NCBI GenBank assembly: GCA_016218975.1
Contig: JACRCO010000053.1
Span: 15,523-79,522, forward strand
Direction of reading: 5' to 3'
DNA from: Deltaproteobacteria bacterium
GTDB taxonomy: Bacteria; Desulfobacterota; Deferrimicrobia; Deferrimicrobiales; Deferrimicrobiaceae
Length of the DNA stretch: 64,000 nt
In this document: positions 10,703-50,614 of the stretch, one piece after another
Numbering within the stretch: position 1 is the first letter of the stretch
How the letters are laid out: each line of letters opens with the position of its first letter
The notes under the pieces: generated by a model
What the model was told of the DNA's origin: nothing
Seen by the model: the letters and a program-made list of their open reading frames with translations, nothing else
Databases searched by the model: none
Program-made: the position numbers and the translations under genes

Positions 10703-10723
10703 TCCCGGGTCGATGGCGTTGCG

Positions 10724-14267: not shown

Positions 14268-14335
14268 GATCCGGGTCCTCCCCCCATTAATATTACACTG
14301 CCCGCCTCAGGCCGGCCCGCATTCATCATGCGGGT

Positions 14336-16525: not shown

Positions 16526-16529
16526 AACG

Positions 16530-17966: not shown

Positions 17967-18035
17967 GATCGTCTTCCCTTTCCTCGTACGGGTAATTCGA
18001 ATGCCGATGCGATGCTCCAGGCCATTCTATCGAAT

Positions 18036-18077
18036 CAAGAAAAAGGGAAGGGGGCCTTTTTGCATGCTGGCCCCCTT
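18036..18077 (-). terminator. Rho-independent terminator after the OmcS-family gene
   Basis: Minus-sense GGGGGCC-agcaugcaaaaa-GGCCCCC hairpin followed by UUCCCUUUUUCUUG. Confidence 0.65.
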
Positions 18078-18126
18078 CCCCGGTTTACTTCAGCCGGACA
18101 AGACGATTCCGGCTACACGATCGACA

Positions 18127-27747: not shown

Positions 27748-30700
27748 CTATAGTTCATGCTGGCCTTTCTTGTGGCAGCGCTTGCAGAGATCGGCCCGCT
27801 TGTTCGCATTCGTCATTTTTTCGAAATCGGATCCGTGCGGGTTATGGCAACTGATGCAATCGATGTACTTACCCGTTTTCGCATCCACGTATTTCCCTTT
27901 TCCCATCCCGTGGAGGTGAGTGTCGGGAACCTTCGGATGGCAACCAAGGCACAGTTTGTTCATGTCCGCCGAGAGCAGCTTGGGCTGTTCCCCCGTATGC
28001 GCCACGTGGCAGCTTTCGCAACCCTTCTCCACGGGTGGGTGCTTATAGGTAACCTTCGCCATTTCCGCGCCGTGGCAATCGAAGCACAGGCCCGGAGAAG
28101 AACGGTAAAGCAGGCCCTTCGCAGGCGCGGAGTGCGGCGAATGGCAGCTGCCGCATTTTTTGTCCGAATCGATCGGGAAGTGGCGTGTTTTCCCCGCAAA
28201 TCCCTTTTTCTTCACATCCTGGTGGCAGTTGAAGCAGAGGTCCGGGCCTCGGGCCGAAAGCTCCTTTTTCCCCTCTCCCGCATGGCATGATACGCACTTC
28301 CCCTCGGAATACGGCTGATGTCCGAAGTTGTGCGCCAGCGCCTTTGCGCCCTTTGCGCCGGCATGCGGGTCGTGGCAGGTGAGGCAATCGGCCCTCGAAA
28401 TATCCATTCCCCTGTGTTTCGGGGCCGCTCCGGCGGCATCGTGGCAGGTCCAGCAGATGTCCGGAACCGGCTTCGAGAGCAGCCGCCTCTGGTTCGTCCC
28501 GTGCGGATCGTGGCAGGAACCGCAGGCGCCTTCGGCGACCGGGTCGTGGAGTTTTTTCCCCGCGAGCCCCTGCCTGAACGATTCGTGGCACCCGTAGCAG
28601 AACTCCTTCTCCGGTTTCGGCAGAAGGAACCTGTTCCCCGCCGAGTGGGCGGCGTGGCACGCCTTGCACGATCCTTCCTCGAGGGGCTTGTGCCTGTATT
28701 TCCTTTGCGGAATGTCGGCCTTGTCGGAATGGCATGCGTTGCAGAATTTCGCACCCTGCGCGACGAGCAGTTTATCCCCCGAAGATGCATGCGGGTCGTG
28801 GCATGATACGCACTCTCCCTTCTTCACCGGTCCGTGCACCACAGGGTCCTTCTGCGTCTTCTCCATCCCGGAATGACAGGTGAAGCAGAGCTTCTCCTTC
28901 GGCGCGGCCAGCACGATTTCGCCGTTCGCCCCCGCCTTTCCGTGGCATGAATCGCATTTGCGGGTTTTGAACGGCTCGTGGGCCTTTGCCTTCATCAGCT
29001 TTCCGGTTACCGAAGAGTGCGGGTCGTGGCACGAGGCGCAGTTGGATTTCCTGTCCGCCATGTCCCGGTGGACCTTCCGGAATTCATCTTTCGTGAGGCT
29101 GTGGCAGGAGGCGCACAGGTCCCCCACCGGTTTCACGAGGCTGCCGGGATTGCTGGAGCCGTGTGGGGAGTGGCAGGTGTCGCACTTCTCCTTCTCCACC
29201 GGAAGGTGGACCTTCCCCTCCCTGAACCGCTTCTTCTCCTCCTTGTGGCAGGAGTAGCAGAGCTCGGCGCCGGCCAGTGAAAGAAGCTTCGGCCGGTCCG
29301 CGCCGTGCGGATCGTGGCAGCCGGCGCAGTCTCCCCGGGCCGCCGGCGTGTGCACCGCCCTTCGCTTGAAGATCTCCTTCAGATCGTCATGGCACGAAAG
29401 ACACAGCGATTTTTCATCCTTCGCCAGCATTGCCTTCGTGTCGCTGCCGTGAGGACCGTGGCAGGAAACGCACCCTTCCGTGGCGGGGGAGTGGGGGAAC
29501 TTCTTCGCCACGGCCTTCTTCATGTCCCCGTGGCACGTGTAGCACAGGCCGGCGCCTTCCTGCTTCGTTAGCCCCTTGCCCTCCGAGCGGTGCGGAGTGT
29601 GACAAACCGAACACCCCTGTTCGACAAGCGGTTTGTGCTTGCGGCGATATCCCCCGGCTTCCTTCAGGTCGCCGTGGCAGCCGGTGCACAGGACGGCTTC
29701 GGCCGCGACGAGCAGCTTCCCGTTCAGCGTCGAGTGGGCGCCGTGGCACGTCAGGCAGCCGTTGTCGTCTAAAGCCGCGTGGCGCGTCCCGGTCCGGGCG
29801 AGCTCCTTCGCGACCTTTTCGTGGCAGGAAAGGCAGAGTCCTTCCCCTGCGGACCTGACGAGTTTTTTGTTGTCCGATCCGTGCGATTCGTGGCAGGCGT
29901 CGCACCGGCTTTTCGCCATAGGAGCGTGTACCTGCGGCTTTTTGAAATCGTCGTCGAGGCGCAGGTGGCATTCGAGGCATATTCCCTTCAAATCGCCTTT
30001 CAGGAGGGGACGCGAAGCGCTTTTGTGCGGCGAGTGGCATTTCAGGCAGTCCCCGTCCCTGGCCGGGAAGTGCGAAACCGGTTTCTTCGTCTTTTTCGAG
30101 ATGTCGTCGTGGCAGTTGGCGCACAGCTCCTTGACCGGCTGGACCAGGGAGCTCTTCACCTTCCCTTCCGTTCCGACCTCGTGGCAGTCGGCGCAGTCCC
30201 CGCGCGCATACGGCTCGTGGACTTCCGGCAACACCCCGCCCTTTTTCGCCGTTCCGTGGGGGCTGTGGCAGGCGGTGCAGGACTGGTTCTTCACCTCCGC
30301 TATGTCGTGAGGCTTTTTCCCCGCCGTTTTTTCCGCCGCGTGGCAGGAGAAGCATAGGTCATTTCCAGCCTTCAGCAGCAGCCTCGGTTCGTCGGTCGAG
30401 TGAGGCGGGTGACAAAGCGAACACTCCCCGTTCCTGAACGGCGAATGGATCCAGACGCCGGACGAAAGCCGCTTCATCTCCTTGTGGCATTCGAAGCAGA
30501 CGGAGGACTTGTCGGCGGTTTCCCTGACGAGCCCTTTGAGGTTCGAAGCATGGGGGTCGTGGCAGGCGGTGCACTCGCCTTTTTTCGCCGGAGAGTGCAT
30601 CGTTTTCTTCCCGAACTTGTCCTTCAGGTCCTTGTGGCACGAATAGCAGAGCTGCGCGCCCTTTTCCTTGAGGATCAGCTTGTTCGAGAAGCCGTGGCGC

Positions 30701-30897
30701 CGGTGGCACGCCTCGCAGTCCTCCTTCGCCACGGGAGCGTGCACGAATTTCCTTTGATGCGCCGCCTTCGCTTTCGGGTGGCAGTCGTAGCAGCCCTTTT
30801 TCGCCGCCAGGATATCGCCCGCGCCACCGGCGAAAATGCAAAGGATTGCGACAGTAGATAAAGCGCCCAGGACCGCTATCCGCCGAACCGTTTTCAT
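27748..30897 (-). CDS. Giant multiheme cytochrome c, about 42 CxxCH motifs (1,049 aa)
   Basis: Signal peptide MKTVRRIAVLGALSTVAILCIFAGGAG. I counted 42 CxxCH motifs, regularly spaced (c7-polymer type), alternating CxxCHxxH and CxxCH. Confidence 0.9.
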   Translation of the reverse strand: MKTVRRIAVLGALSTVAILCIFAGGAGDILAAKKGCYDCHPKAKAAHQRKFVHAPVAKEDCEACHRRHGFSNKLILKEKGAQLCYSCHKDLKDKFGKKTMHSPAKKGECTACHDPHASNLKGLVRETADKSSVCFECHKEMKRLSSGVWIHSPFRNGECSLCHPPHSTDEPRLLLKAGNDLCFSCHAAEKTAGKKPHDIAEVKNQSCTACHSPHGTAKKGGVLPEVHEPYARGDCADCHEVGTEGKVKSSLVQPVKELCANCHDDISKKTKKPVSHFPARDGDCLKCHSPHKSASRPLLKGDLKGICLECHLRLDDDFKKPQVHAPMAKSRCDACHESHGSDNKKLVRSAGEGLCLSCHEKVAKELARTGTRHAALDDNGCLTCHGAHSTLNGKLLVAAEAVLCTGCHGDLKEAGGYRRKHKPLVEQGCSVCHTPHRSEGKGLTKQEGAGLCYTCHGDMKKAVAKKFPHSPATEGCVSCHGPHGSDTKAMLAKDEKSLCLSCHDDLKEIFKRRAVHTPAARGDCAGCHDPHGADRPKLLSLAGAELCYSCHKEEKKRFREGKVHLPVEKEKCDTCHSPHGSSNPGSLVKPVGDLCASCHSLTKDEFRKVHRDMADRKSNCASCHDPHSSVTGKLMKAKAHEPFKTRKCDSCHGKAGANGEIVLAAPKEKLCFTCHSGMEKTQKDPVVHGPVKKGECVSCHDPHASSGDKLLVAQGAKFCNACHSDKADIPQRKYRHKPLEEGSCKACHAAHSAGNRFLLPKPEKEFCYGCHESFRQGLAGKKLHDPVAEGACGSCHDPHGTNQRRLLSKPVPDICWTCHDAAGAAPKHRGMDISRADCLTCHDPHAGAKGAKALAHNFGHQPYSEGKCVSCHAGEGKKELSARGPDLCFNCHQDVKKKGFAGKTRHFPIDSDKKCGSCHSPHSAPAKGLLYRSSPGLCFDCHGAEMAKVTYKHPPVEKGCESCHVAHTGEQPKLLSADMNKLCLGCHPKVPDTHLHGMGKGKYVDAKTGKYIDCISCHNPHGSDFEKMTNANKRADLCKRCHKKGQHEL

Positions 30898-30919: not shown

Positions 30920-31537
30920 CTATTTTCGAAGCGACGCGGAGAACGCCCTGGCCATCTCGGCCGCCGTCTCCTCCGCGAGGTTGTTGATGGAATGGATCCT
31001 GCCTATCCCGAAAACCGTTTCCCTGTCGCTGCCTCGCCGGGAGGCGTTGCCCGCCCAGACGATATCCCCCGTGGAGGCGTCGAGTATGCGAAGGGACATC
31101 GAGACCACCGGAATCTGTCCCGAGCCCCCCGCCCCCGTGGCGATCTGCATGTCGAAGTCGTGCACCGTTCCCATCATGAACAGGTCCACTCCGAGCCCTC
31201 TGCCCAGGGCGACGAGGGTCTCCCTGGGTATGCTGGTCGCCAGCCGTACCCTCTCCTTCGAAAGCATGGCGTTAACCTCGCCGGGATCGAGGACCATAAC
31301 CGGGGCGTTTTTCAGGAGTTCCACGAGGATGTAGCTTTCCATCGATTTCCCCGCCCCCTGGGTCTTGCTCAAATTCTCGAACGGCAGGATCGCCATCTTC
31401 ACCCCTTCGCCTTTCCTGAGGCCGGCGCCGGTGAACGGCTTCAGGGTGGGTCCGCACCCGAACAGCAGCGCGGAGACCAGCAGCAGGGCGGCGATCCGCA
31501 AACGAGACGATCGGCGTCCGGTAACGTGTATTCCCAT
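30920..31537 (-). CDS. Lipoprotein, CsgG/LpoB/DUF799-superfamily-like
   Basis: LLLVSALLFGCGPT lipobox. VKMAILPFENLSKT...VDLFMMGTVHDF...TGDIVW. Confidence 0.7.
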   Translation of the reverse strand: MGIHVTGRRSSRLRIAALLLVSALLFGCGPTLKPFTGAGLRKGEGVKMAILPFENLSKTQGAGKSMESYILVELLKNAPVMVLDPGEVNAMLSKERVRLATSIPRETLVALGRGLGVDLFMMGTVHDFDMQIATGAGGSGQIPVVSMSLRILDASTGDIVWAGNASRRGSDRETVFGIGRIHSINNLAEETAAEMARAFSASLRK

Positions 31538-31552
31538 CTTCGTACCCGCTTT

Positions 31553-32167
31553 CTATTTCGAATATGCCTTCTTGTAGAAATCCTTGACGACGATTGCGCA
31601 CGATTTTTGCGAAAGTTCCCCGAGCGTGAACGTTTCGCCGATGCTGACGACGGGGAGATACGGACCGCCGGTGGCATTTATGCTCCCTTGCCACGCCACT
31701 GTTCCGGTGGGAGCGTCGATGAACTTGACCGTCATGGAGATCATCGGGTATTGATCCCCGCCGAGCTGGATCAGCTTGAAGTCGTGGACCGTCCCCGTGA
31801 ATACCCCCTGGACTCCCGCGACGCTCGCAACCTGGGAAAGCTGGGAGGGACTCAATTCGAGCGTCGACGTCGGAGCGTTCGACCGGACGACCTGCGCCAC
31901 CACGGCGTTGAACTGCCCCGGGTCCATCACTTCCAGTTCTCCGGCGATAAGCAGCTCGGTCATGAAATTCTCCGTCACCTTCTCCCCCGCGAGCCGGTCC
32001 TCGGCCTGGTTGCGGAACGGCATGAGCCCTACCTTCTTGTAAAAAGCAAAGTCCGCCTGGGGGTTCAGGAAACTTCGAGTGCTGACCAGCGAAGAGCAGC
32101 CGGCCGCGCACGAGGCGAGCAGGAGCACGAAGCCGAAAAGCATTCTTCTTGCCATTCGATCTCCCAT
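31553..32167 (-). CDS. Lipoprotein, CsgG/LpoB/DUF799-superfamily-like
   Basis: FVLLLASCAAGCSS lipobox. KKVGLMPFRNQA...VQGVFTGTVHDF...TGTVAW. Confidence 0.7.
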   Translation of the reverse strand: MGDRMARRMLFGFVLLLASCAAGCSSLVSTRSFLNPQADFAFYKKVGLMPFRNQAEDRLAGEKVTENFMTELLIAGELEVMDPGQFNAVVAQVVRSNAPTSTLELSPSQLSQVASVAGVQGVFTGTVHDFKLIQLGGDQYPMISMTVKFIDAPTGTVAWQGSINATGGPYLPVVSIGETFTLGELSQKSCAIVVKDFYKKAYSK

Positions 32168-33924
32168 CAGAACGATTTGCTGAAACGGACCCGGAAGAAG
32201 TCTGTCCGTTCCTCCCTGAAAAGTTGCGTGCCGGAATAGGCAAGCTCCAGGCTGACACGCTTCCTGAATGCGAGCCCCAGCGTCCCCGAGAAGGTATGGT
32301 CGCTCCTGCCTGCCGCCTGCCTCGCGCCGTAGTTCAGGCTCATCTGGTGCCCGCGCCGGAAACGGTAGGCCATCGTTCCAGTGGCCGAATAAGACGATCT
32401 CCCGGTCTCCGGCAGCGACACCGTCCCGGAAAGGCCGTAGATGGTCCGCCGGTTGGCCATGTATGAAAGGGAAGTGTTGAAGTTCTGGTTGCCGATCCTG
32501 CCGAGGTCCAGCCGTTCGGCGGACGATGCCGAGGAATAGCTGAGCGCCAGGTTCGTCTTGTCGGTAGGTATCGCGTTCACCTGGACCGACTTGTTGACCG
32601 AATAACTTTCCGTGACCGGTTCGACGTGGGCCGTAAGGACCCAGTCTCCGATCGCGGTCGAGTTCTTCGTGTACAGGTCGTTGCCGACGACGTCGAAATA
32701 GGTGAAGCCGGGAGGACGGTCGTCGAACAGGACCCTGTCCGCCAGCGTCCCGGAAGCGTTGTAGCCGGCCGTGCTTACGAAAGTGCGCGACTCGCTCCGG
32801 TTCGCGTTCAGGTTCAGGCGCAGCGAGATCCGCTGCGTCAGGTCCATCGTGGAGTTGACCCCGAAATTGTCGCTTACGTTCCTGCCCTGGTCAGGGTCGG
32901 ATTCGACGCTCCGCGAACCGCTCGCCCCGAGAAGTACCCCCTCCCTTAGCTGCTTGCTGACGTTGGCGGCGTAAGTGACGAAATCGACGCTGCGCATCGT
33001 CTGCGCGTCGTTGAAACGCCTGTTTCCCGTCGTGCCCGAGAACCGCAGGAAGGGATATGGGTCGAGGTTGGCGGTCACGTCGGAGAACTGCTGCGTGGTC
33101 CTGGTCACGGCGGCGGACGGGGAATCGAAGTCGGTGTCCGTCCTCGAGTAATTCCCTGTGAATCCGAGCCACGGCAAGGGCCGCGTGTCGGCGCTCATGC
33201 GGAAGGCGTTGCCGATCGTCGCCGTCTCCTGCCCCGCGCCGCTCGTGGCGGAAAAGCGGTTGTAATCGTAGTCGCCCGTCAAGGTCGTCCTGGGCAGGAT
33301 TTCGTAGCTCCCCCCGAAACCCAGCAAGACGGTAGACGACTCCAGCCCCGCCTGCCCTCCGGACGTTCTCCGGTCGTTGGAATACCCCCCGCGGAAGTTC
33401 ATCCACTTGTACCGGTAGTCGCCGAAGAAGGATGCCGTGTCGCTCGACGTGACCGATCCCCCGGTCGCCGACTCGGTGCGCGAGAAGCTCGCCGAGAGCC
33501 GGGGGAGATCCTTGGGGGAAAGAGAAAGGGCCGCCCTGGAATTGCTCGTCTCGGTCAGCTGTGCGGCGGAGCTTATGGTGGAAAAACGGCTATGCTGGAG
33601 ATTCAGGGCGAACGCCTCCCCGGACAGATCCATACCCAGGTTGCCGACGGGGGATACGTTCAATACGCTCTCTTCGTCGGACCTGGTGTAGTTGAGGCGG
33701 AGGCTCAGGCGCGCCTGGATCTTTTTTTTCGTGGGCGGATATAAATCGAGGTTCACTCCGCCCTGGAAAAGCCTGGTGTCGTCCCGGGGCCCTCTCGCGT
33801 ATGTATCATCGAGGAAGAAATTACCGTTCACGCGTGTTATCGCCTCCGCGCGCTGCGGCGCGGCCGCCGTCAGCAGCGATGCAGCCGCCGCAAGAGCCAG
33901 AATTTCGAGCCATCCGGACTTCAA
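32167..33924 (-). CDS. Predicted outer-membrane beta-barrel protein, paralog-like of the 14336..16525 protein (start uncertain: TTG 33924 or ATG 33978)
   Basis: Ends ...FFRVRFSKSF (C-terminal aromatic). Signal peptide KSGWLEILALAAAASLLTAAAPQRAEA. Ser/Thr/Asn/Arg-rich strand-like composition. The full ORF would overlap the upstream cytochrome gene. Confidence 0.6.
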   Translation of the reverse strand: MKSGWLEILALAAAASLLTAAAPQRAEAITRVNGNFFLDDTYARGPRDDTRLFQGGVNLDLYPPTKKKIQARLSLRLNYTRSDEESVLNVSPVGNLGMDLSGEAFALNLQHSRFSTISSAAQLTETSNSRAALSLSPKDLPRLSASFSRTESATGGSVTSSDTASFFGDYRYKWMNFRGGYSNDRRTSGGQAGLESSTVLLGFGGSYEILPRTTLTGDYDYNRFSATSGAGQETATIGNAFRMSADTRPLPWLGFTGNYSRTDTDFDSPSAAVTRTTQQFSDVTANLDPYPFLRFSGTTGNRRFNDAQTMRSVDFVTYAANVSKQLREGVLLGASGSRSVESDPDQGRNVSDNFGVNSTMDLTQRISLRLNLNANRSESRTFVSTAGYNASGTLADRVLFDDRPPGFTYFDVVGNDLYTKNSTAIGDWVLTAHVEPVTESYSVNKSVQVNAIPTDKTNLALSYSSASSAERLDLGRIGNQNFNTSLSYMANRRTIYGLSGTVSLPETGRSSYSATGTMAYRFRRGHQMSLNYGARQAAGRSDHTFSGTLGLAFRKRVSLELAYSGTQLFREERTDFFRVRFSKSF

Positions 33925-33935
33925 CCTCCGCCGAC

Positions 33936-35339
33936 CTATCGCGGGTAGTTGACCGCGTACGATTTCGTCGCATGGCATGTCGGAGTGCAGCTTCCGCCGC
34001 CTCCGCCCGGGACGAAGCTCAGGATCCCCGGGCTCCTCCCTGTTGCTATAAGCGCCGGGAACTGCGGCGAGCCGTGGGAATCGTGGCATGCGTAGCACGG
34101 GATGTTCCGCTCTCCGACGTGGAAAGCGTGCCCCCTCGTCGAGGATGGGGGGTTGAACCGGCTCGCCTGCTGCTCCGGCGCCGATGAAAACGGATTCGCA
34201 TACGTCTCGAAGTTGTGGCAGAGGAAACAGAGCTCCTGCCTGGTGACGACGCGGTTGAAGCTTCGTGCGTCGTACGCCCTGCGGAGCAGGTTGGGGAACT
34301 GCGATCCGTGCGGCCCTTTAAGGTTCGAATCGTCGGAGCCGTGGCAGTCGGCGCAATGGATGACGCTCATTGCGTTCCTCCCCGCCACGAACGCTGCCGG
34401 GTTGATCCCCGTGTTTTTCCCCTGTGCTTCCACCGGATGGAAGGAGGCGTTGTTCACGTTGAACAAACGGGCCATGTCCTGCTCGCCCGGCGGCTGGTTC
34501 GTCCACGACGAGTGGCACTTGAAGCAGATCTCGTATTCCAGCACCGGGGTGCTTACGTCGTTCGCAGGACGGTACTCGTAGAAAGGAATGGTCCCAGCGG
34601 CTCCGTTCACGACCCTTATGCGGCTCACCCTCGAGTTGCGGTTGGAGGCCGCAGGCGGGGCCGGCGGCAAGGGGTCCGCGGAAACGGCGTGTGCGTTGTG
34701 GCAGTCGGCGCATTCCGCATGCCGGTTGCCGCCGACGTAGGAAAAGAGCGCAGGGTCGCCTCCCTCGCCGGCACGGTGTTTTCCGGCCGTAATGACCGCG
34801 GGGTGGCTGTACGGCTTGCGGATCTCGCGCGCGATGTCGCGGAACGAGGGGTCTCCGTCGTGGCAGGCCGTGCAGAGGCTTTCCTCCCGTGCGACCATCT
34901 GGCTCGGTATCGCTCCCCGACTGTCCTGGCGGCCATGGGGGTCGTGGCAGTTCAGGCATTTGCCCGCTGCGCCAGCCTCCCTCCTCGAAGGCGGATACGG
35001 TCCCGGCCAGACCGTGCGTCCGTCGGTGCGATGGTTCGATGATTCGTAAGCGATCCGGCCGGGGTAGGTGCCGGCTATATTTTCGTTCTGGTGGCACGTA
35101 AAACAGAGTTCGTTGTCGTTCTCCCGCCAAAGCGCCTTGGGAAACCTGGCCTGGGCGTCTTCGTCCACGTGGCAATGGTTGCACCCGCCCCTGGATATCG
35201 CAGGGTCGCGCAGAACGCCCGTGACGGGGTTTCCGTGCCCGGTTTCGGCGTAAACACCCGCGGCCGCCGGCAAGGCACAGACCGTCCCCGCCATGATCGC
35301 GATCGCGAAGTTTACGAGCGCATGCCGCCTGCGGCTCAT
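33936..35339 (-). CDS. Multiheme cytochrome c (nine CxxCH plus one CxxxCH)
   Basis: ORF trimmed to ATG 35339 (MSRRRHALVNFAIAIMAGTVCALPAAAG). Motifs include CNHCH, CFTCH, CLNCHDPH, CTACHDG, CADCHNAH, CFKCH, CADCHGS, CFLCH, CYACHDSH and CTPTCH. Confidence 0.85.
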   Translation of the reverse strand: MSRRRHALVNFAIAIMAGTVCALPAAAGVYAETGHGNPVTGVLRDPAISRGGCNHCHVDEDAQARFPKALWRENDNELCFTCHQNENIAGTYPGRIAYESSNHRTDGRTVWPGPYPPSRREAGAAGKCLNCHDPHGRQDSRGAIPSQMVAREESLCTACHDGDPSFRDIAREIRKPYSHPAVITAGKHRAGEGGDPALFSYVGGNRHAECADCHNAHAVSADPLPPAPPAASNRNSRVSRIRVVNGAAGTIPFYEYRPANDVSTPVLEYEICFKCHSSWTNQPPGEQDMARLFNVNNASFHPVEAQGKNTGINPAAFVAGRNAMSVIHCADCHGSDDSNLKGPHGSQFPNLLRRAYDARSFNRVVTRQELCFLCHNFETYANPFSSAPEQQASRFNPPSSTRGHAFHVGERNIPCYACHDSHGSPQFPALIATGRSPGILSFVPGGGGGSCTPTCHATKSYAVNYPR

Positions 35340-35368
35340 GCCCGTGGCGATCCTCCTTCCGGGCGCGT

Positions 35369-36379
35369 CTATCGGTTGTGGCACTGCTGGCACCCCGCTA
35401 TCGAATCGGCGGGCCTACCGGGTTCCTTGTACGGCCACACCAAGCCCTTCCGATATTTCCCGCCGTGCGCCAGGTGGCAGCTTCCGCACATGACCTGGTT
35501 GCTTGCCGACACGGTTTTCGACGAGGCGAAATCGACCGCCCCGGCCGCCTGGAACCGCAGCCTCGGCACTCCTTCCACAAGGTCGCCCGTCGCAGTTCCG
35601 AAGCCGGCCCCCGAGCCGTCCGCCCAGTGGGCCGGATCCGTCGGCCACCCGGAGGGATATCCCGCTCCGTCGATCGGAACGTCGGAAAGATGGTGGAGCC
35701 GGTTGCCCGGCAGGTTCACGCTCGACTTCAGCCGGTCGTGGCACTCGGCGCACCATGCGGACGTTCCGGCCTTGTATCCTTCGTTCGACTCCTTGTATGC
35801 GGCGGCCGTGGCCGCGGCCGACGGAGGATCGCCGGGAGGCGCCTCCCTGAATACGTCCTTTCCCATCTCCGTTCCGATCCCCTGCCCTCCCGCCGGCGCG
35901 GTGAGAACGTTCCTGTAGTTGGGGGTCCCATGCGGGTCGTGGCAGGAGGCGCAAGTAAGGGTCGCGTTCGAAAGGGTGCTGAAAGGGACGGACGTCGAAT
36001 TAATCCCGAGATCGTGCCCGTTCTGGTTGGCGGCGCCTCCGCTGTTGGAGAAAGATCCGGCCCCGGAGTGCTCGTCGCCGCTTCCCGAATACATCGTCAC
36101 GGGTTCGAGGACGTCGGGAGCCTTGGGGTCGCTGCCGTCGTGGCAGAAAAGACAGAGCTTGTTGGTGGTGGCCCGGACCAGGAGCCTGGGAAACGGCCCT
36201 CCCGGCTCCACCTTCGCGGGCACGCCGCCCGCCTCGCTGTAGTGAAGCGTGTGGCAGTCGCCGCACGGCTGCCGGTTCTTCTGCAGGTCGTGATAGTAGG
36301 CGTGCGACACGTGCCCGGCGGCCAGGAACAGGAAGAGTCCTCCCGCGATCGATCCGCAATACAGGGACGCTCGTCTCAT
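35369..36379 (-). CDS. Hexaheme c-type cytochrome with OmcS-like motif order (family C)
   Basis: Signal peptide, then YYHD...CGDCHTLH, CLFCHDG, CASCHDPHG, CAECHDRL, CGSCHLAHGG, C-terminal CQQCHNR. This parallels OmcS heme-motif order and spacing. Confidence 0.8.
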   Translation of the reverse strand: MRRASLYCGSIAGGLFLFLAAGHVSHAYYHDLQKNRQPCGDCHTLHYSEAGGVPAKVEPGGPFPRLLVRATTNKLCLFCHDGSDPKAPDVLEPVTMYSGSGDEHSGAGSFSNSGGAANQNGHDLGINSTSVPFSTLSNATLTCASCHDPHGTPNYRNVLTAPAGGQGIGTEMGKDVFREAPPGDPPSAAATAAAYKESNEGYKAGTSAWCAECHDRLKSSVNLPGNRLHHLSDVPIDGAGYPSGWPTDPAHWADGSGAGFGTATGDLVEGVPRLRFQAAGAVDFASSKTVSASNQVMCGSCHLAHGGKYRKGLVWPYKEPGRPADSIAGCQQCHNR

Positions 36380-36383: not shown

Positions 36384-37301
36384 CTAATCCTTCAGGTCTC
36401 CCACCTGGAAAACCTGGACGCGCTCCGCCCCTTTCTCGAGGACGAAGAGCTCCCCTTTCTCGCCGAAACAGAGATCGACCGGAAAGAAGAACCCCCCGCT
36501 TTCGGTCGTCTCTTCCAGCCGCCCGAAGTTGAAAAGGAACTCTCCTTCCGCGGAGAACACCTTCAGCCGGTGCTGGAACGGGTCGGCGATCCAGAGCCGG
36601 CCCTTCGCGTCGGATGCGAACCCGGTCGGAAACGACATGTTCCTGTCCGACTTGTCGCCATGGTCTCCGAAGGAACGCAGGAGCTTGCCGCCGTCGTCGA
36701 AGAGCTGCACCGCCTTCCCCTGTGCGCTGACGCCCACGATACGCCCGCCGCTTTCCCTCCCGGCTTTCTGGAGGTAATCGAACTTTCCCATCGACCGGAT
36801 AAAATCTCCCCGCGAGGACAAGAGAAGGATTTCATTGCCGTCCAGGTCGGCGACATAAACCCGGTCGTCCCTGCCAAGCGTGATCCGGCCGGGTGAAACC
36901 TTGCGGCCCGCCGCATGGGCGAGGTCTATTTCGTCGGAGATCGCCCCCCCCGGACTGAAGATCTTCAGCAGGCCGGTCCGCACCTCGCTGACGTAGATCC
37001 GGCCCGCGTTGTCCAGCGCAACGCCGTACGGCGTGACCAGGCCCGCATCCGCGCCCATCCTCTTGACGATAGACCCGGCTTTGTCGAGGATGACTACCTC
37101 GCCGGACTCGAAGCTCGAAACGATCAGTTCCCCGCTTTTTCCGTCCCGGACGATCGCGAGAGGGCTCCTCAACGCCCGCTCTCCACCCTCATCCTTGAAG
37201 ACGGCGATCCGCCGGATCTCGGGAGCCATGACCTGCGCGAACCCCGGATGCGCGGCAAAAAGCAAGTTCAAACCCGCTGCTGCGAGCAGGATCCGCACCA
37301 T
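36384..37301 (-). CDS. NHL-repeat protein, secreted
   Basis: ORF trimmed to ATG 37301 (MVRILLAAAGLNLLFAAHPGFAQ). NHL-like blades (GRIYVSEVRTGLLKIF, DRVYVADLDGNEILLL, GRLWIADPFQHRLKVF). Confidence 0.8.
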   Translation of the reverse strand: MVRILLAAAGLNLLFAAHPGFAQVMAPEIRRIAVFKDEGGERALRSPLAIVRDGKSGELIVSSFESGEVVILDKAGSIVKRMGADAGLVTPYGVALDNAGRIYVSEVRTGLLKIFSPGGAISDEIDLAHAAGRKVSPGRITLGRDDRVYVADLDGNEILLLSSRGDFIRSMGKFDYLQKAGRESGGRIVGVSAQGKAVQLFDDGGKLLRSFGDHGDKSDRNMSFPTGFASDAKGRLWIADPFQHRLKVFSAEGEFLFNFGRLEETTESGGFFFPVDLCFGEKGELFVLEKGAERVQVFQVGDLKD

Positions 37302-37416
37302 GAACGTCGCGCCGCCAAGCCGGCGGGCGAGCCCCCGCGAGGGACACCCCGTGAGGCGTGCGTAGCCCGGCACTGTAACGGAAAATATTTTCGGAGCGGA
37401 AGACATCGGCTGTCGC

Positions 37417-38328
37417 TCAGATACCGGCGATCGAAAACACCGAGATCCGATTCCCCCCTTCTTCAAGGACGTACAGGTTCTCGTGCGGATCGACGGCAAG
37501 GTCCGCCGGGGAGAACAGGCCCTCTCCGCTCATCGAGAAGATCACGTTCCCGAGCGGATCGAGCGCCTTTATCCCGCGACCCCCCTCCTCAACGACCCAT
37601 ATCCGGCTTCGCGCGTCTACCGCGAGGGCCTTGATCCTGAGCGGCTCCCTCGAGCGCAGGGTTGATGTTCCGATCGTCCGAAGCTGTTTCCCGCGGTCGT
37701 CGTACACCCGGATCCCCCCGAACCCCGGGTCCGCCACGTATATCTTTCCCGTACGGTCGACCCATATGTCCGCGGGCTCGCCGACGTCTGCGATGGAGAA
37801 ACGCAGCTTCTCGTCAGCCCCGAAGGCAAGGACCTGCCGGTTCCCCCGGTCGGCGACGTAAAGATCGCCGTTCCAGTCCGCGAAAAGCGCGGCCGGCTGC
37901 ACCGGCGACGTTCTTCTGTATTGCTTGAGATCTATCTCGCGGTACGCCTCGGCGGCAACGGCGTCGTACCCGTCGAGCGCCTTCACGATTTCGCTTTCCC
38001 TCCCGGCGATGAAAAGCTTCCCTCCGCGCGTTGCGGCCACAGCCCTCGGATATCCCAGCTCGCCGCCTTTCCCCAGGACCTTGACGATCTGTCCTTTGCG
38101 GTCCAGAACGGAAACCTGGTGCAGCAGCGGATTGGCGACCGAAAGGTATCCCCTTTGCTCGTCGTACCAGAGGCCTGTCGGGGAAAGTAAGGCGAGGTCC
38201 GGACCGGAAGGAACGATCGTGACGGACCTTTCCAGGCACAGCGTCCGGGCGGGTGCCGGCGCAAGGATCATGAGTGCGGCCGTCAGCACGACCGCGAAAA
38301 GATCCTTTCGTGAAAATACATGGCGCAT
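37417..38328 (-). CDS. NHL-repeat protein, secreted
   Basis: Signal peptide MRHVFSRKDLFAVVLTAALMILAPAPA. Repeats GDLYVADRGNRQVLAF, GKIYVADPGFGGIRVY, ENLYVLEEGGNRISVF. Confidence 0.8.
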   Translation of the reverse strand: MRHVFSRKDLFAVVLTAALMILAPAPARTLCLERSVTIVPSGPDLALLSPTGLWYDEQRGYLSVANPLLHQVSVLDRKGQIVKVLGKGGELGYPRAVAATRGGKLFIAGRESEIVKALDGYDAVAAEAYREIDLKQYRRTSPVQPAALFADWNGDLYVADRGNRQVLAFGADEKLRFSIADVGEPADIWVDRTGKIYVADPGFGGIRVYDDRGKQLRTIGTSTLRSREPLRIKALAVDARSRIWVVEEGGRGIKALDPLGNVIFSMSGEGLFSPADLAVDPHENLYVLEEGGNRISVFSIAGI

Positions 38329-38346
38329 CCCTGCCGGTTCCCTTCC

Positions 38347-40515
38347 CTATTCCTTTGCCGCGGGGTCGACCCGGCCGGGCTGCGCCGGTTTCAGGAAGAA
38401 TGGTCTTTTATCCGAGCCGTCGCTGTTCATGACGAACAGGCGCTCGTCGTTCTCATCCAGCGAGACGTAAACGATGGTCCCTTCCTCCGGAAGAAGCGCG
38501 GGGAATATCGCTCCCGTCTCCGTCAGCGGCGCCGGCTGGCCCCCCTCCGCCTTCACGGCGAATACGTTGGGAATTCCGTTATGCAAGGCCGTGAATATGA
38601 CGTGCTCGTCAGTCGCATCGAAAAACGGCCGGTGGGTATATTCCGGCTGGAACACCTGGAACTGGCTGTCCACCTCGCTGGAATGAAGTTTTTTCGTTTC
38701 CGTTCCGTCGGCGTTCGATGCGATGAGCTCGCGAACGACCTTCTTCCCGTCGTAAACTGTAAAGGTGTATCCGATCTTTTTCCCGGCCGCGGACCAGAAC
38801 GGATGGGAAGCCGTGGACGGAGGCCTGTCCTCGCCCTTGTTGCTCTCCGCGAACGATGTCACGCGAACCCTGCCGGTCCCGTCTCCCTTCATCGTCCAGA
38901 CATCGACCCCGTCCGTGAATGCGATCTTCTTCCCGTCGTTGGACCACTTCGGCTGAAGGTAAAGCTCGGCCGCGACCTCAGGGGCCGAAGGATAGCGCAG
39001 ATCGCTCAACCGGAACGCATTGTCCGACGCCGTCAGCATGTACAGGCCCGGCGTCTCGCCGTATCTCGGTATGGCGCTTACAAGGACCTTGTCGTCCTGG
39101 ATGGAAGCATCGGCGTCGAGATAGGACCTGAGATCGCCATTGTTGGGAAAATCGATCGGGCCCTTCTCCGAGAAGGCGTGCAGCCCCCTTGCCGAAAACA
39201 CAAGGAGCCCCTCGCTGCGCGGAAGCCAGAATATTCGGGTGTCGCCTTCAAGCGCGAAACCGGGATAAGAAGCCGATTCCTCTCCCGCGATACCCGCGAC
39301 CTTCAAGAATTCGACCCCTCCCTCGTTGGTGAAGAAGGCCACCTTCGTCGCGTCCGGAGAAGGCACTGGCATCCATGCGGAAGGCCTGCTCTTCGCGAGC
39401 GGTTTTACGCTTCCCGTAATCCCGTCAAGTAGGTAGAGCTCGGCGGAGCCGCTCCTCTCCGAAACCCCGGCGAGGACGATGTCTTTTCCGCCGGGGGAAA
39501 GCGAAAAATCGGACAGGTGCAGTTCGGGGGGCGAAATCCTCCTCTCGATGCCGGATGCCATATCAAGCCGCCAGAGCGCGTTGACGCCCACCTGCCTGTT
39601 GCCCGACTTCCTGGTCTCATGCGGCGCCCGCGGTTTTTCCCTGTCATCGTCCACCTTCGCGCCTGCGGTGTTGTCGGCTGCGACGGCGTTATCCGCAGGC
39701 ACGATCTCTATATCCTGCCCGATGTAAAAAATCCCCTTGCCGTCGACATCCCATGCGATACGTCGCCCCGCGAGCCTCGGGGCCTTGAGGACCGTGACCT
39801 CCTTGCCGGACAGATCCATGGTGCGGATCTCGAACTCGCCGGGGCTGGTGGGGAACGGATAGGCTATGAGCCCCGCCTTGTTCGAATAGGCCGGTGTCCC
39901 GATGTACTTGTTCAGAAGCGGCTTGCTCTCCATATCGGACAGGTCGATCTCCCAGATTCCGACTCCGTACGTCTTGCCGGCCTCGTAATAGACCTTTCGG
40001 CTGTCCGGGCTAAAAAAAACCGATCGGACGCTTATCTTTTCGGTCACCGCCTCGACCCTCGATCCGTCCGAGGTGCCGATCCACAGGTCCCGTACGTTTT
40101 GCTGTTCCCCGGGGGCCGTGAAAGCGAAAAGCTTCCCGTCCGGCGACTCGATCGGGATCCCTGCGTTGGGAGGGATACCGGGAATCCGTTCTTCCGGCCT
40201 GCCTCCGTCGATGCCGATCCGTAAAACCTCCTCGTACCCCTTGCGCCTGGCGGAGAACAGGATGGTTTTTCCGTCCGGCGCCCAGCGGAAATGAGAAACC
40301 CCGCGAGTCGTAAGCCGCCGTTTTCCGGAACCGTCGGCGTTCATCACCCAAAGGTCCGCAGGCGTATGCAATGTGGAGGAAAGAAAGGCTATCTTGCTTC
40401 CGTCGGGAGAGTGGACAGGGCTTCTGCCTCCGTTGGGTTCGGCGCTGTTGGCCGGGTTGAACGCAGACATGACAATTATAAAGATAACGGTTAACGACAG
40501 CAGATACTTTTTCAT
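38347..40515 (-). CDS. TolB-like periplasmic protein with multiple PD40/WD40-like beta-propeller repeats
   Basis: Signal peptide MKKYLLSLTVIFIIVMSAFNPANSA. Many SPDG.KIAF-type PD40 repeats (SPDGSKIAFLS, APDGKTILFSA, SPDGKLFAFTA, SPDSRKVYY, SPDATKVAFF, SNDGKKIAFTD). Confidence 0.8.
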   Translation of the reverse strand: MKKYLLSLTVIFIIVMSAFNPANSAEPNGGRSPVHSPDGSKIAFLSSTLHTPADLWVMNADGSGKRRLTTRGVSHFRWAPDGKTILFSARRKGYEEVLRIGIDGGRPEERIPGIPPNAGIPIESPDGKLFAFTAPGEQQNVRDLWIGTSDGSRVEAVTEKISVRSVFFSPDSRKVYYEAGKTYGVGIWEIDLSDMESKPLLNKYIGTPAYSNKAGLIAYPFPTSPGEFEIRTMDLSGKEVTVLKAPRLAGRRIAWDVDGKGIFYIGQDIEIVPADNAVAADNTAGAKVDDDREKPRAPHETRKSGNRQVGVNALWRLDMASGIERRISPPELHLSDFSLSPGGKDIVLAGVSERSGSAELYLLDGITGSVKPLAKSRPSAWMPVPSPDATKVAFFTNEGGVEFLKVAGIAGEESASYPGFALEGDTRIFWLPRSEGLLVFSARGLHAFSEKGPIDFPNNGDLRSYLDADASIQDDKVLVSAIPRYGETPGLYMLTASDNAFRLSDLRYPSAPEVAAELYLQPKWSNDGKKIAFTDGVDVWTMKGDGTGRVRVTSFAESNKGEDRPPSTASHPFWSAAGKKIGYTFTVYDGKKVVRELIASNADGTETKKLHSSEVDSQFQVFQPEYTHRPFFDATDEHVIFTALHNGIPNVFAVKAEGGQPAPLTETGAIFPALLPEEGTIVYVSLDENDERLFVMNSDGSDKRPFFLKPAQPGRVDPAAKE

Positions 40516-42052: not shown

Positions 42053-42138
42053 GATCACCCCCCGGAGGTGGTGAAGCCCTGCGGGCGTGGAGTCACGCCC
42101 GCAGGGCGGCATGAAACATTCTCAAATGGACAGGCGAT

Positions 42139-43536: not shown

Positions 43537-43556
43537 TGCATCCTCCGAAGTTTTCT

Positions 43557-43640
43557 CTGGCGGCCCGGCCGTCCTTCCATCGAAGGATCCGTGGGCTTTG
43601 CGTCCCCCGATTACTCGAGGTTTGCCTTTTTCAGAGGATT
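43557..43640 (-). promoter_or_regulatory. GEMM-I (c-di-GMP/cGAMP class) riboswitch candidate in the leader of the family-B hexaheme gene
   Basis: Minus-sense GGCAAACC-UCGA[GUAA]UCGGGG-GACGCAAAGCC aligns base-for-base with the Vc2-type GEMM-I P1 and core. P2 hairpin UCCUUC-GAUG-GAAGGA covaries with the 19418..19500 copy. The P1 overlaps the stop codon of the upstream NHL gene. Confidence 0.7.
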
Positions 43641-44675: not shown

Positions 44676-44786
44676 GACGCCCAAAGGTTTTGCATCGGGC
44701 ATGCCGCTTGCCCACGCCACCTGCAACCGCCCGATAATTCAAAGGGTTTAAAAAATCAGTCGAGACCGGTTACCCTCCTCGAAATC

Positions 44787-50456: not shown

Positions 50457-50614
50457 CGTCAGAGTCTCCGCTCGATTCTTCCGAAGGAACCCGTTTGCCG
50501 GGATTCCCGATGGCAACTTTCATTTCGGAAGAAGGAACGGATACCCTTAGCAGCATAACGTCAAGTTTTTGACATATTCGGTAATAAATATTCAATGCAG
50601 GTCCTTGATAGCCG

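What the first reader, a model, noticed from the sequence alone, without database searches (positions are those of the whole stretch)
30920..33924. Second copy of the barrel-plus-twin-lipoprotein module, directly upstream of the 42-heme cytochrome
The same three-gene arrangement (barrel ending ...RFSKSF, two ~200-aa lipoproteins of the same family) recurs with only 22 bp between the last lipoprotein and the 42-heme cytochrome gene. Duplication of the whole unit next to different giant cytochromes argues for a functional coupling rather than chance adjacency.
Basis: seen in the sequence. Interest (0 to 1): 0.75.

Follow-up and report, generated by a model that had tools for sequence, protein, structure and literature searches.

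The report
Divergent OmcS-nanowire channel module (OscEFG-like)
The barrel, two lipoproteins and 42-heme cytochrome are real, and they form the outer-membrane part of a second, very divergent copy of the Geobacter-type "OmcS companion" (osc) cluster for cytochrome nanowires, so this is a new variant of a published system rather than a new kind of machine.

Summary
On the minus strand lie a 585-aa outer-membrane barrel (32167-33924), two about 200-aa lipoproteins (31553-32167 and 30920-31537) and, 22 bp further on, a 1049-aa cytochrome with 42 CxxCH motifs (27748-30897).

The first copy (12542-16606) is a clear ortholog of Geobacter OscE/OscF/OscG. It sits in a complete osc cluster: OmcS, OscD, E, F, G, the prolyl isomerase OscH, 26-heme OscI, 16-heme OscJ and an NHL protein.

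The second copy belongs to a separate, more divergent osc-type cluster.
- Its lipoproteins are homologs of OscF and of the C-terminal domain of OscG.
- Its barrel is related to OscE only at profile level (hhalign 99.1%, 505 collinear columns; BLAST finds nothing).
- Its 42-heme cytochrome matches OscI plus OscJ in one chain.

So the two giant cytochromes are not different, and the two copies are not independent evidence of coupling. The order barrel, lipoprotein, lipoprotein, 42-heme cytochrome is nevertheless kept in 11 of 11 loci from Nitrospirota, Myxococcota and uncultured lineages.

The lipoproteins are also homologs of PelC, which forms a ring under the PelB barrel.

Most likely function: an outer-membrane channel or anchor for OmcS-like filaments, fed by a periplasmic heme wire. 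Verdict: new variant of a known kind.

The parts
32167..33924 (-). Barrel 2: 585-aa outer-membrane beta-barrel of about 28 strands. Remote homolog of OscE.
32623..32763 (-). Insert of about 45 aa in barrel 2 (residues about 388-434, GTLADRVLFDDRPPGFTYFDVVGNDLYTKNSTAIGDW...), between strands 19 and 20. Predicted to be an extracellular loop. It shares a motif with phage tail-fibre and collagen-repeat proteins.
   Evidence: Profile search: more than 100 proteins match only these profile positions. Examples carry collagen repeats and BclA_C, and hit PHROG tail-fibre families. Local Foldseek matches to phage structural and tail-fibre proteins at 23-35% identity. The insert is absent from the 520-555-aa sister barrels.
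31553..32167 (-). Lipoprotein A2 (204 aa). OscF homolog with a PelC/LpoB/GNA1162-type fold.
   Evidence: BLASTP to the Geobacter OscF-position protein: 1.7e-20, full length. Best window paralog is A1 (1e-18). Pfam LpoB, weak. Family profile hits PelC 9h80_C at 1.9e-13. Lipobox present.
30920..31537 (-). Lipoprotein B2 (205 aa). Homolog of the C-terminal domain of OscG, PelC/CsgG-like.
   Evidence: BLASTP to the Geobacter OscG-position protein, residues 221-358: 1.6e-11. Best window paralog is the C-terminal domain of 12542..13708 (8e-18). Pfam CsgG 4e-5, above the cut-off. Lipobox LFGC.
27748..30897 (-). 42-heme periplasmic cytochrome, equivalent to OscI (26 hemes) and OscJ (16 hemes) in one chain.
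   Evidence: 42 CxxCH at a regular 23/25-aa spacing, 45 further His, 25 aa per heme. Residues 1-652 match the 26-heme protein and 667-1044 match the 16-heme protein. NCBIfam doubled-CXXCH in 22 stretches; DmsE/MtrA-family 5e-139. 34% identity to the Geobacter OscI-position protein.
33936..36379 (-). 9-heme (33936..35393) and 6-heme (35369..36379) cytochromes directly upstream of barrel 2.
   Evidence: Heme counts. Conserved in this position in the related barrel-2 loci that extend upstream. The 6-heme protein is weakly similar to the OmcS-like proteins.
36384..40515 (-). Two NHL-repeat proteins (36384..37499 and 37417..38328) and a PD40/TolB-like beta-propeller (38347..40515).
   Evidence: Pfam. 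Conserved synteny.
40712..44742 (-). Two OmcS-family hexaheme genes at the head of cluster 2: 40712..42112, and 42139..44742, which has an extra N-terminal half.
   Evidence: phmmer to OmcS 6ef8_A: 5.8e-21. Six CxxCH each. Paralogy.
12542..16606 (-). Copy 1, the canonical OscE/F/G: barrel 1 (14336..16606, probable start near 16489-16525), OscF (13686..14267) and two-domain OscG (12542..13708).
6524..12460 (-). Rest of cluster 1 downstream: OscH prolyl isomerase (10724..12460), 26-heme OscI (8717..10702), 16-heme OscJ (7432..8778) and an NHL protein (6524..7690).
   Evidence: Pfam Rotamase_2/SurA_N. OscH 39% and OscI 57% to Geobacter. Heme counts. NHL repeats.
16530..19395 (-). Cluster 1 upstream: OscD-like YNCE beta-propeller (16530..17966) and a close OmcS homolog (18127..19395).
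   Evidence: OscD 44% to Geobacter. Pfam YNCE. OmcS 6ef8_A 3.8e-108, end to end.

Best explanation
The module is the outer-membrane part of a second, divergent osc-type (OmcS companion) cytochrome-nanowire system.

Barrel 2 is a roughly 28-stranded barrel remotely homologous to OscE. The two lipoproteins are homologs of OscF and of the C-terminal domain of OscG. They belong to the PelC family, whose members form a lipid-anchored ring on the periplasmic rim of a barrel. The 42-heme cytochrome corresponds to OscI and OscJ made as one chain.

Proposed working (inferred, not shown): the lipoproteins assemble as a ring or cap under the wide, short-looped barrel. The complex lets the OmcS-like hexaheme subunits encoded at the head of the operon cross the outer membrane and anchors the filament. 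The 42-heme protein, about 21 di-heme repeats and probably tens of nanometres long, docks at the periplasmic face and carries electrons from the inner membrane to the filament base.

Shown here: gene anatomy, the homologies, conserved gene order and the predicted folds. Taken from the literature: a role of OscEFG in OmcS secretion. Inferred: ring formation, docking of the 42-heme protein and the direction of electron flow.
For: Orthology of copy 1 to Geobacter osc genes, using loci fetched through OmcS:
- OscD 44%, OscE 32-35% (3e-153), OscF 59%, OscG 40%, OscH 39%, OscI 57%.

Copy 2:
- A2 matches OscF at 1.7e-20; B2 matches the OscG C-terminal domain at 1.6e-11.
- Barrel 2 family against OscE family: hhalign 99.1%, E = 8.4e-19, 505 collinear columns. 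Negative controls gave 2.7% and 0.7%.
- A bridging sequence, P0369, is hit by the barrel 2 profile at a library-wide E of 1.5e-7 and matches the OscE family at 99.5%.
- The 42-heme protein equals the 26-heme plus the 16-heme protein.

OmcS-family genes head both clusters.

Synteny: 11 of 11 loci keep the order, and all 7 complete cytochromes, the window's included, have exactly 42 CxxCH.

The lipoprotein profile hits PelC at 1.9e-13, from the lipobox through the core. PelC forms a 12-mer ring mounted on the PelB barrel (PMC12141448).

Both barrels are confident AF2 models with about 28 strands. In barrel 2 all but one connection between strands are 9 residues or fewer, so nothing in the chain itself would plug the lumen.

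The bona fide MtrB/PioB porin in the same window has no such lipoproteins.

Literature: OscE/F/G are proposed to act in OmcS secretion, OscH in folding and OscD in filament morphology (PMC13194489). The eight-gene block GSU2500-2493 always accompanies the OmcS-like GSU2501 (bioRxiv 10.1101/2025.11.06.686851).
Against: - Cluster 2 has no prolyl isomerase (OscH), and its propeller is PD40/TolB-like rather than YNCE-like. It is therefore not a simple copy of the osc cluster.
- The barrel homology rests on profile-profile alignment of beta-barrels, which can be inflated by shared amphipathic periodicity. Single-sequence comparisons are weak.
- No transcript, localisation or interaction data exist for this organism.
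- The primary osc paper (Shen et al. 2025) could not be read here. The secretion role is taken from citing papers, which themselves call it proposed or suggested.
- Nothing here distinguishes a secretion channel from an electron conduit.
- The OmcS-like proteins of cluster 2 are only distantly related to OmcS (E = 5.8e-21), and it is unknown whether they polymerise.
Confidence: 0.62

Rival explanations
1. Porin-cytochrome electron conduit. The barrel is a sheath, as MtrB is for MtrA. One end of the 42-heme wire is threaded through it, the lipoproteins seal or position the assembly, and the complex is the electrical socket for extracellular cytochromes rather than a protein-export channel.
For: - The 42-heme protein is built of MtrA/DmsE-like units: TIGR03508 5e-139 in 8 stretches, and 32% identity to the window's MtrA-like decaheme.
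- It is translationally close to the lipoproteins (22 bp) and invariably adjacent to them.
- Short loops and no plug domain suggest that something must fill a 28-strand lumen.
- The heme count is fixed at 42 across phyla, which suggests a length constraint.
- How electrons enter OmcS filaments is an acknowledged open question (PMC12307469).
Against: - The barrel is not a member of MtrB_PioB: no Pfam hit, and hhalign gives 2.7%.
- Known porin-cytochrome complexes need no PelC-like lipoproteins, and the MtrB-type system in this window has none.
- In Geobacter a prolyl isomerase gene separates OscG from OscI.
- A distant OscE-like locus (L015) has only a 5-heme cytochrome after OscG.
- Citing literature assigns OscEFG to secretion.
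- This reading and the best explanation are not mutually exclusive.
Confidence: 0.25
2. Polysaccharide export channel of the PelBC type. The barrel and PelC-like lipoproteins would export or anchor an exopolysaccharide that holds the cytochromes at the surface.
For: - The lipoproteins are PelC homologs.
- The OscE-type barrel 1 carries a CBM32-like carbohydrate-binding insert.
- Glycosyltransferase genes lie upstream of omcS in the Geobacter locus L008.
Against: - No polysaccharide synthase, TPR-PelB-like or other pel genes are found in the conserved cluster, which consists of cytochromes, beta-propellers and the module.
- The barrel has about 28 strands, not about 16, and lacks a TPR domain.
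- Barrel 2 has no CBM insert.
Confidence: 0.06
3. Generic envelope lipoproteins (LpoB-like activators of peptidoglycan synthases) and an unrelated porin that merely sit next to cytochrome genes.
For: Weak Pfam and NCBIfam LpoB matches.
Against: - All LpoB scores are far below the equivalog cut-off: 21-32 bits against 110.55.
- The gene order is strictly conserved with cytochromes in 11 of 11 loci across phyla.
- Start and stop codons are coupled.
Confidence: 0.03

Closest known systems
OscE/OscF/OscG with OscI and OscJ of the Geobacter sulfurreducens osc (omcS companion) cluster, GSU2499-2494 (Shen et al. 2025, Cell Chem Biol 32:239, as reported in PMC13194489 and bioRxiv 10.1101/2025.11.06.686851)
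   Same: - Same order: barrel, lipoprotein, lipoprotein, giant cytochromes, downstream of OmcS-family hexaheme genes and beta-propeller or NHL proteins.
- A2 is homologous to OscF, B2 to the OscG C-terminal domain, and the 42-heme protein to OscI plus OscJ.
- The barrel is remotely homologous to OscE.
- Copy 1 in this window is a straightforward ortholog set.
   Different: In copy 2:
- the barrel is beyond BLAST range of OscE, is 585 rather than about 720 aa, lacks the CBM32-like insert and has a tail-fibre-like 45-aa insert at another position;
- the OscG-like protein has one domain instead of two;
- there is no OscH prolyl isomerase;
- OscI and OscJ are one 42-heme chain;
- the propeller is PD40/TolB-like, not YNCE;
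- extra 6-heme and 9-heme cytochromes precede the barrel.
PelBC exopolysaccharide export complex of Pseudomonas aeruginosa (PDB 9h80; PMC12141448)
   Same: The lipoproteins are sequence homologs of PelC (1.9e-13). An outer-membrane barrel is encoded next to them, which suggests a lipid-anchored ring on the periplasmic rim of the barrel.
   Different: - Two different lipoproteins instead of one.
- A barrel of about 28 strands without TPR domains, instead of the PelB barrel.
- No pel biosynthesis genes.
- The neighbours are multiheme cytochromes, so the cargo or partner is probably protein.
MtrCAB and Geobacter porin-cytochrome complexes (PDB 6r2q)
   Different: - No MtrB_PioB family membership.
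- PelC-like lipoproteins are added.
- The cytochrome has 42 hemes, not 8-12.
- A genuine MtrB/PioB plus decaheme pair lies elsewhere in the window (50698-54230) and looks different.
CsgG curli channel and LptDE
   Different: - The lipoproteins are too short to carry CsgG's own transmembrane hairpins (not tested structurally), and a separate barrel is present.
- There is no sequence relation to LptD or LptE.

Membership tests
osc cluster OscE/F/G (+OscI/J) | Encoded in one same-strand cluster with an OmcS-family hexaheme cytochrome | tested here: met
   40712..42112 matches OmcS 6ef8_A at 5.8e-21. All genes from 44742 down to 27748 are on the minus strand with gaps of -1 to 196 bp. The same order is found in L003, L004, L011-L013.
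osc cluster OscE/F/G (+OscI/J) | OscF homolog (about 200-aa GNA1162/PelC-like lipoprotein) directly after the barrel | tested here: met
   A2 against the Geobacter (L010) OscF-position protein: 26.7% over 202 aa, 1.7e-20.
osc cluster OscE/F/G (+OscI/J) | OscG homolog (about 390-aa two-domain lipoprotein) | tested here: inconclusive
   B2 is homologous only to the C-terminal domain (residues 221-358) of the OscG-position protein, 1.6e-11. The N-terminal domain is absent.
osc cluster OscE/F/G (+OscI/J) | OscE homolog (about 720-aa barrel with a CBM32-like insert) | tested here: inconclusive
   BLASTP finds nothing. Profiles of close relatives give 26%. Broad profiles give 99.1% over 505 columns, with clean controls. 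The CBM32-like insert is absent from barrel 2.
osc cluster OscE/F/G (+OscI/J) | OscH prolyl isomerase between OscG and OscI | tested here: not met
   No paralog of 10724..12460 exists anywhere else in the window. Only 22 bp separate B2 from the 42-heme gene. It is also absent from L002-L005, L011-L013 and L016.
osc cluster OscE/F/G (+OscI/J) | OscI (26 hemes) and OscJ (about 16 hemes) follow | tested here: met
   Present as one fused 42-heme chain. Residues 1-652 match the 26-heme protein and 667-1044 match the 16-heme protein. 34% identity to the Geobacter OscI-position protein.
osc cluster OscE/F/G (+OscI/J) | Required for secretion or assembly of OmcS-type filaments | not testable with these tools
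   Needs genetics and microscopy. Known only for G. sulfurreducens, and only through citing papers.
PelC lipoprotein family | Sequence homology to PelC, including the lipobox and core motifs | tested here: met
   Profile A6 against 9h80_C: 1.9e-13 (profile positions 7-167 to chain residues 4-155). Against 5t11, 5t10 and 5t0z: 3e-11 to 2e-10.
PelC lipoprotein family | Dodecameric ring mounted on a barrel | not testable with these tools
   No multimer prediction was available. The ring is known for PelBC (PMC12141448).
PelC lipoprotein family | Part of a pel operon with PelB and Pel synthesis genes | tested here: not met
   Pfam scans of most cluster genes and the gene tables of related loci show only cytochromes, propellers, periplasmic binding proteins and regulators. 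The 6-heme and 9-heme genes and the OmcS-like gene at 40712..42112 were not scanned.
MtrAB-type porin-cytochrome complex | Barrel belongs to the MtrB/PioB family | tested here: not met
   No Pfam hit for barrel 2 at E <= 0.1. hhalign to the window's MtrB/PioB protein: 2.7%. That protein itself scores 2.5e-130.
MtrAB-type porin-cytochrome complex | Adjacent periplasmic MtrA/DmsE-type multiheme cytochrome | tested here: met
   TIGR03508 5.1e-139, 8 stretches.
MtrAB-type porin-cytochrome complex | Cytochrome inserted in the barrel lumen | not testable with these tools
   Needs a complex structure or biochemistry.
CsgG curli channel | CsgG family match, with the lipoprotein's own transmembrane hairpins forming the pore | tested here: inconclusive
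   B2 matches PF03783 at 4e-5, 23.5 bits against a cut-off of 20.8, over profile positions 31-174 of 210. A2 does not match. The transmembrane hairpins were not examined. A separate barrel gene is present.
LpoB (PBP1B activator) | Reaches the TIGR02722 equivalog score | tested here: not met
   21.5 to 32.1 bits against a cut-off of 110.55.

The most novel reading that the evidence does not exclude
The barrel, the PelC-like lipoprotein ring and the 42-heme chain would form a previously unrecognised trans-envelope electrical socket. A single polypeptide of 42 bis-His hemes, whose length is fixed across phyla, would span the periplasm from inner-membrane quinol oxidases. It would enter or dock at a 28-strand barrel and plug directly into the base of an OmcS-like filament. 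In that case the osc 'secretion' genes of Geobacter would also be the long-sought electron entry point of cytochrome nanowires, and the fusion seen here would show that OscI and OscJ work end to end.
Probability: 0.25. Interest if true: 0.85.

Novelty: new variant of a known kind. Interest (0 to 1): 0.45.

Why it matters
How cytochrome nanowires cross the outer membrane, where they are anchored and how electrons enter them are acknowledged open questions (PMC12307469; bioRxiv 10.1101/2025.10.22.684050). This window offers a natural comparison: a canonical osc cluster and a deeply diverged one in a single genome. What the two share marks the probable functional core: a barrel of about 28 strands, an OscF-like and an OscG-like PelC-family lipoprotein, 42 hemes' worth of OscI/J, NHL or propeller proteins, and an OmcS-family subunit. 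What differs is probably accessory or specific to one lineage: the prolyl isomerase, the CBM32-like insert and the second OscG domain.

Two results yield testable ideas.
- The OscI-OscJ fusion with a fixed count of 42 hemes predicts that the two Geobacter proteins act as one wire.
- The PelC homology predicts a lipoprotein ring under the barrel.

The variant also extends the system to Nitrospirota (Thermodesulfovibrionia) and Anaeromyxobacter MAGs. There, barrel 2 and the four other proteins for which I saw a database name carry only names such as 'hypothetical protein' or 'cytochrome C'.

Tried and rejected
- BLASTP and tblastn between the two barrels: no significant match.
- First hhalign with profiles of close relatives only: 26%. 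It became convincing only after adding the sister group and Geobacter sequences.
- Pfam, NCBIfam and PDB sequence searches for both barrels: nothing.
- The afdb50 fold library was not available, so no AlphaFold-database neighbours could be listed.
- Shen et al. 2025 (PMC11845295, PubMed 39818215) is not held. Its content is taken from citing papers and, where marked, from my memory.
- Literature search for '42 heme': irrelevant hits only.
- The promoter and terminator scan of 22900-42400 was no better than shuffled sequence. There was no terminator-like site between the minus-strand genes of the cluster, and one promoter-like site at 40650-40622. This fits one operon but is not evidence for it.
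- A4 was too diverse to use for a locus search. The genome and metagenome scans with A1 relied on a single peptide pattern and returned only 5 and 6 loci, so the family is under-sampled.
- I could not superpose the two AF2 models because coordinates are not exposed. The strand counts come from the DSSP strings and may be off by 2.
- The LpoB reading and chance adjacency were rejected (see rival explanations).

Full report
**1. Observation**

The finding's coordinates are exact. All four genes lie on the minus strand.
- Barrel: ORF 32167..34098. The TTG at 33924 gives the 585-aa protein that NCBI annotates as HY896_06765 in a 'Deltaproteobacteria bacterium' MAG, on a 276-kb contig. It ends ...RVRFSKSF.
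- Lipoprotein A2: 31553..32167. Its start overlaps the barrel's stop codon by one base.
- Lipoprotein B2: 30920..31537, after a 15-bp gap.
- Cytochrome: 27748..30897, 1049 aa, after a 22-bp gap, with 42 CxxCH motifs.

Both small proteins have lipoprotein signal peptides. The CxxCH motifs are spaced with striking regularity, alternating 23 and 25 residues. There are 45 further histidines, enough for bis-His ligation of every heme, and the ratio is 25 residues per heme.

**2. The first copy and how alike the copies are**

tblastn of the module against the window finds the other copy at 12542..16606. It consists of:
- a 717-756-aa protein (14336..16606, ending ...FHVGF);
- a 193-aa lipoprotein (13686..14267);
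- a 388-aa lipoprotein (12542..13708) made of two tandem domains of the same kind.

A SurA/PpiC-type prolyl isomerase, a 26-heme cytochrome, a 16-heme cytochrome and an NHL protein follow.

The lipoproteins pair by position. A1 matches A2 at 1e-18, and the C-terminal domain of B1 matches B2 at 8e-18.

The 42-heme protein is collinear with the 26-heme protein (residues 1-652, 35.8% identity) followed by the 16-heme protein without its signal peptide (residues 667-1044, 36%). The 'different giant cytochromes' are therefore the same pair, fused in one copy and split in the other.

The barrels are the weak point. BLASTP gives E = 0.11, and profiles built from close relatives give only 26%.

**3. 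Are the barrels related?**

AlphaFold2 with family alignments gives confident models of both. By my count of the DSSP strings:
- Barrel 2: pLDDT 86.5, 19 long strands, an insert of about 55 residues, then 9 strands.
- Barrel 1: pLDDT 90.0, 11-12 strands, an insert of about 165 residues, then 17 strands.

Each therefore has about 28 strands. I could not inspect coordinates, so this count may be off by two.

A profile search of 1.84 billion representatives with the barrel 2 family found three groups:
- about 16 full-length representatives;
- a sister group of 520-555-aa barrels without the insert;
- at E = 1.5e-7, a 710-aa protein (P0369) that is itself an OscE-type barrel (99.5% to the barrel 1 family).

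I rebuilt both profiles with these bridging sequences and two Geobacter proteins. hhalign then gave 99.1%, E = 8.4e-19, over 505 collinear columns from end to end. The same profiles against the MtrB/PioB barrel of this window gave 2.7% and 0.7%.

I conclude that the barrels are remote homologs. One caveat remains: profile alignments of beta-barrels can be flattered by shared periodicity.

**4. What the clusters are**

The gene at 18127..19395 matches the solved OmcS nanowire subunit end to end (3.8e-108). The genes at 40712..42112, 42139..44742 and 49149..50516 are distant OmcS-family hexahemes.

I used the OmcS sequence to reach Geobacter genomes and fetched two omcS loci.
- L008 carries the OmcS-cluster representative, 94% identical to the solved OmcS.
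- L010 is of the Geobacter sp. DSM 9736 type.

Their gene order is omcS, (omcT, a 1017-aa protein), an OmcS-like hexaheme, a YNCE propeller, a 718-749-aa protein, a 200-aa GNA1162-like lipoprotein, a 392-aa protein, a prolyl isomerase and a large cytochrome.

According to citing papers these are the osc (omcS companion) genes. OscC is GSU2501, OscI is GSU2495 and OscJ is GSU2494. OscH is proposed for folding, OscE/F/G for secretion and OscD for filament morphology (PMC13194489). The eight-gene block GSU2500-2493 always accompanies the GSU2501-type hexaheme (bioRxiv 10.1101/2025.11.06.686851).

By position, the 718-749-aa protein is OscE, the 200-aa lipoprotein is OscF and the 392-aa protein is OscG.

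Window cluster 1 is orthologous gene for gene: OscD 44%, OscE 32-35% (3e-153), OscF 59%, OscG 40%, OscH 39%, OscI 57%.

For the module under study:
- A2 matches OscF (1.7e-20);
- B2 matches the C-terminal domain of OscG (1.6e-11);
- the 42-heme protein matches OscI (1e-65);
- barrel 2 has no BLAST match to OscE.

**5. Conservation of the variant**

Genome, metagenome and exact-protein look-ups gave 16 related loci for the barrel 2 type.

Wherever DNA is present downstream, the order is barrel, A-type lipoprotein, B-type lipoprotein, 42-heme-type cytochrome. This holds in 11 of 11 cases: the window, L002-L005, L011-L013, L016, L017 and L021.

All seven complete cytochromes have exactly 42 CxxCH.

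Upstream, the same loci carry an OmcS-like hexaheme, a PD40/Tricorn-like propeller, one or two NHL proteins, a 6-heme cytochrome and a 9-heme cytochrome.

The hosts are Thermodesulfovibrionia and Nitrospiraceae MAGs, an Anaeromyxobacter MAG, another Deltaproteobacteria MAG and unassigned metagenome contigs.

The sister barrel (22% identity, no insert) is still followed by both lipoproteins. Two tetrahemes and a cytochrome of at least 26 hemes, which runs off the contig, come next.

A distant OscE-like locus (L015) keeps OscD, E, F and G but has only a 5-heme cytochrome next to them. The invariant core is therefore the barrel plus the two lipoproteins, and the giant cytochrome is a near-constant neighbour.

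**6. The lipoproteins**

Pfam gives weak LpoB, CsgG and GNA1162-like matches. LpoB equivalog scores are far below the cut-off.

A profile of 21 A-type and B-type proteins hits PelC of Pseudomonas aeruginosa at 1.9e-13, from the lipobox through the core motifs. It also hits three other PelC structures and GNA1162.

In the PelBC structure, twelve PelC lipoproteins form a periplasmic ring mounted on the PelB barrel (PMC12141448). This is the best structural precedent for how two such lipoproteins could work with a barrel.

The genuine MtrB/PioB porin with its decaheme in the same window (50698-54230) has no such lipoproteins. The association is therefore specific to OscE-type barrels.

**7. Mechanism**

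Established here:
- the identities and homologies above;
- the conserved order;
- the predicted folds;
- all but one connection between strands in barrel 2 are 9 residues or fewer, so the chain has no obvious plug of its own.

Inferred:
- the lipoproteins form a ring or cap at the periplasmic rim;
- the complex passes or anchors OmcS-like subunits, which is the literature's view for OscEFG;
- the 42-heme chain is a long periplasmic wire that docks there.

From my own knowledge, the ten hemes of MtrA span about 8 nm. Forty-two hemes in a comparable linear arrangement could therefore reach about 30 nm, roughly the width of a periplasm. This is an estimate, not a result.

The main rival is that the barrel sheathes one end of the 42-heme wire, as MtrB sheathes MtrA. 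My data cannot separate the two readings, and they could both be true. A polysaccharide-export reading, suggested by PelC and the CBM32 insert, lacks any synthesis genes in the cluster.

**8. Novelty and verdict**

The osc cluster is published and described as widespread, so the kind of system is known. This copy departs from the Geobacter prototype in several defining respects:
- the barrel is beyond BLAST range, with a different insert;
- OscG has a single domain;
- there is no OscH;
- OscI and OscJ are fused;
- the propeller is of a different type;
- extra cytochromes precede the barrel.

I rate it a new variant of a known kind. I could not read the primary paper to see whether such variants were already catalogued.

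Interest is moderate. The most useful points are the OscI-J fusion with a fixed heme count, the PelC homology, and the side-by-side natural comparison that defines the conserved core.

Noticed in passing
window 32623-32763 (-), barrel 2 residues about 388-434: The only long connection between strands in barrel 2 carries a motif of about 45 aa (G.LADR..FDD...GF.YFD.....LYTKNS....DW). Elsewhere this motif occurs as 2-4 repeats in collagen-repeat, BclA_C or CBM5/12 proteins that hit PHROG tail-fibre families. More than 100 representatives match only this segment. The motif is not in Pfam, and the 520-555-aa sister barrels lack it. It may be a surface-exposed adhesion or receptor-mimic module, or one acquired from a phage.
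   Followed up: partly
window 27748-30897 compared with 7432-10702: The 42-heme protein equals the 26-heme protein plus the 16-heme protein minus its signal peptide. This is a Rosetta-stone type of fusion (or a fission in the other cluster) and implies that OscI and OscJ act together. The heme count of exactly 42 is kept in all 7 complete homologs seen, the window's own included.
   Followed up: yes
[not shown]
   Followed up: partly
window 50698-54230 (-) and 49149-50516 (-): A third extracellular electron transfer system: a 951-aa MtrB/PioB porin (Pfam 2.5e-130), a 10-heme MtrA-like cytochrome, and another OmcS-family hexaheme gene just downstream. It has no PelC-like lipoproteins.
   Followed up: partly
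window 22991-27706, 45371-49075 and 54425-58182 (all -): Each of these three stretches, one downstream of cluster 2, one between its OmcS-like genes and one beside the MtrB-type system, holds a paralogous regulatory set: PhnD-like periplasmic binding protein(s), a sensor kinase and a sigma-54 response regulator (41-56% and 29-60% identity between sets). A related set lies upstream of the osc cluster in metagenome locus L006.
   Followed up: no
window 42139-44742 (-): An 867-aa protein whose C-terminal half is an OmcS-family hexaheme domain (54% identity to 40712..42112). Its N-terminal half of about 430 aa has no family match. It may be a modified filament subunit, or a cap or anchor.
   Followed up: no
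window 20818-22086 (+): A second close OmcS homolog (47% identity to 18127..19395, 48% to the Geobacter OmcS-type protein of locus L010). It is on the opposite strand, facing cluster 1.
   Followed up: no
window 1339-6423 (+): A 1694-aa secreted protein with many repeated Ig-like or cadherin-like segments next to cluster 1. In metagenome locus L006 a 1110-aa PKD/Big-repeat protein sits where OscG would be.
   Followed up: no
L014 4984-6318: In the sister-barrel locus, two near-identical 186-aa tetraheme (cytochrome c554-like) genes are inserted between the second lipoprotein and the giant cytochrome.
   Followed up: no
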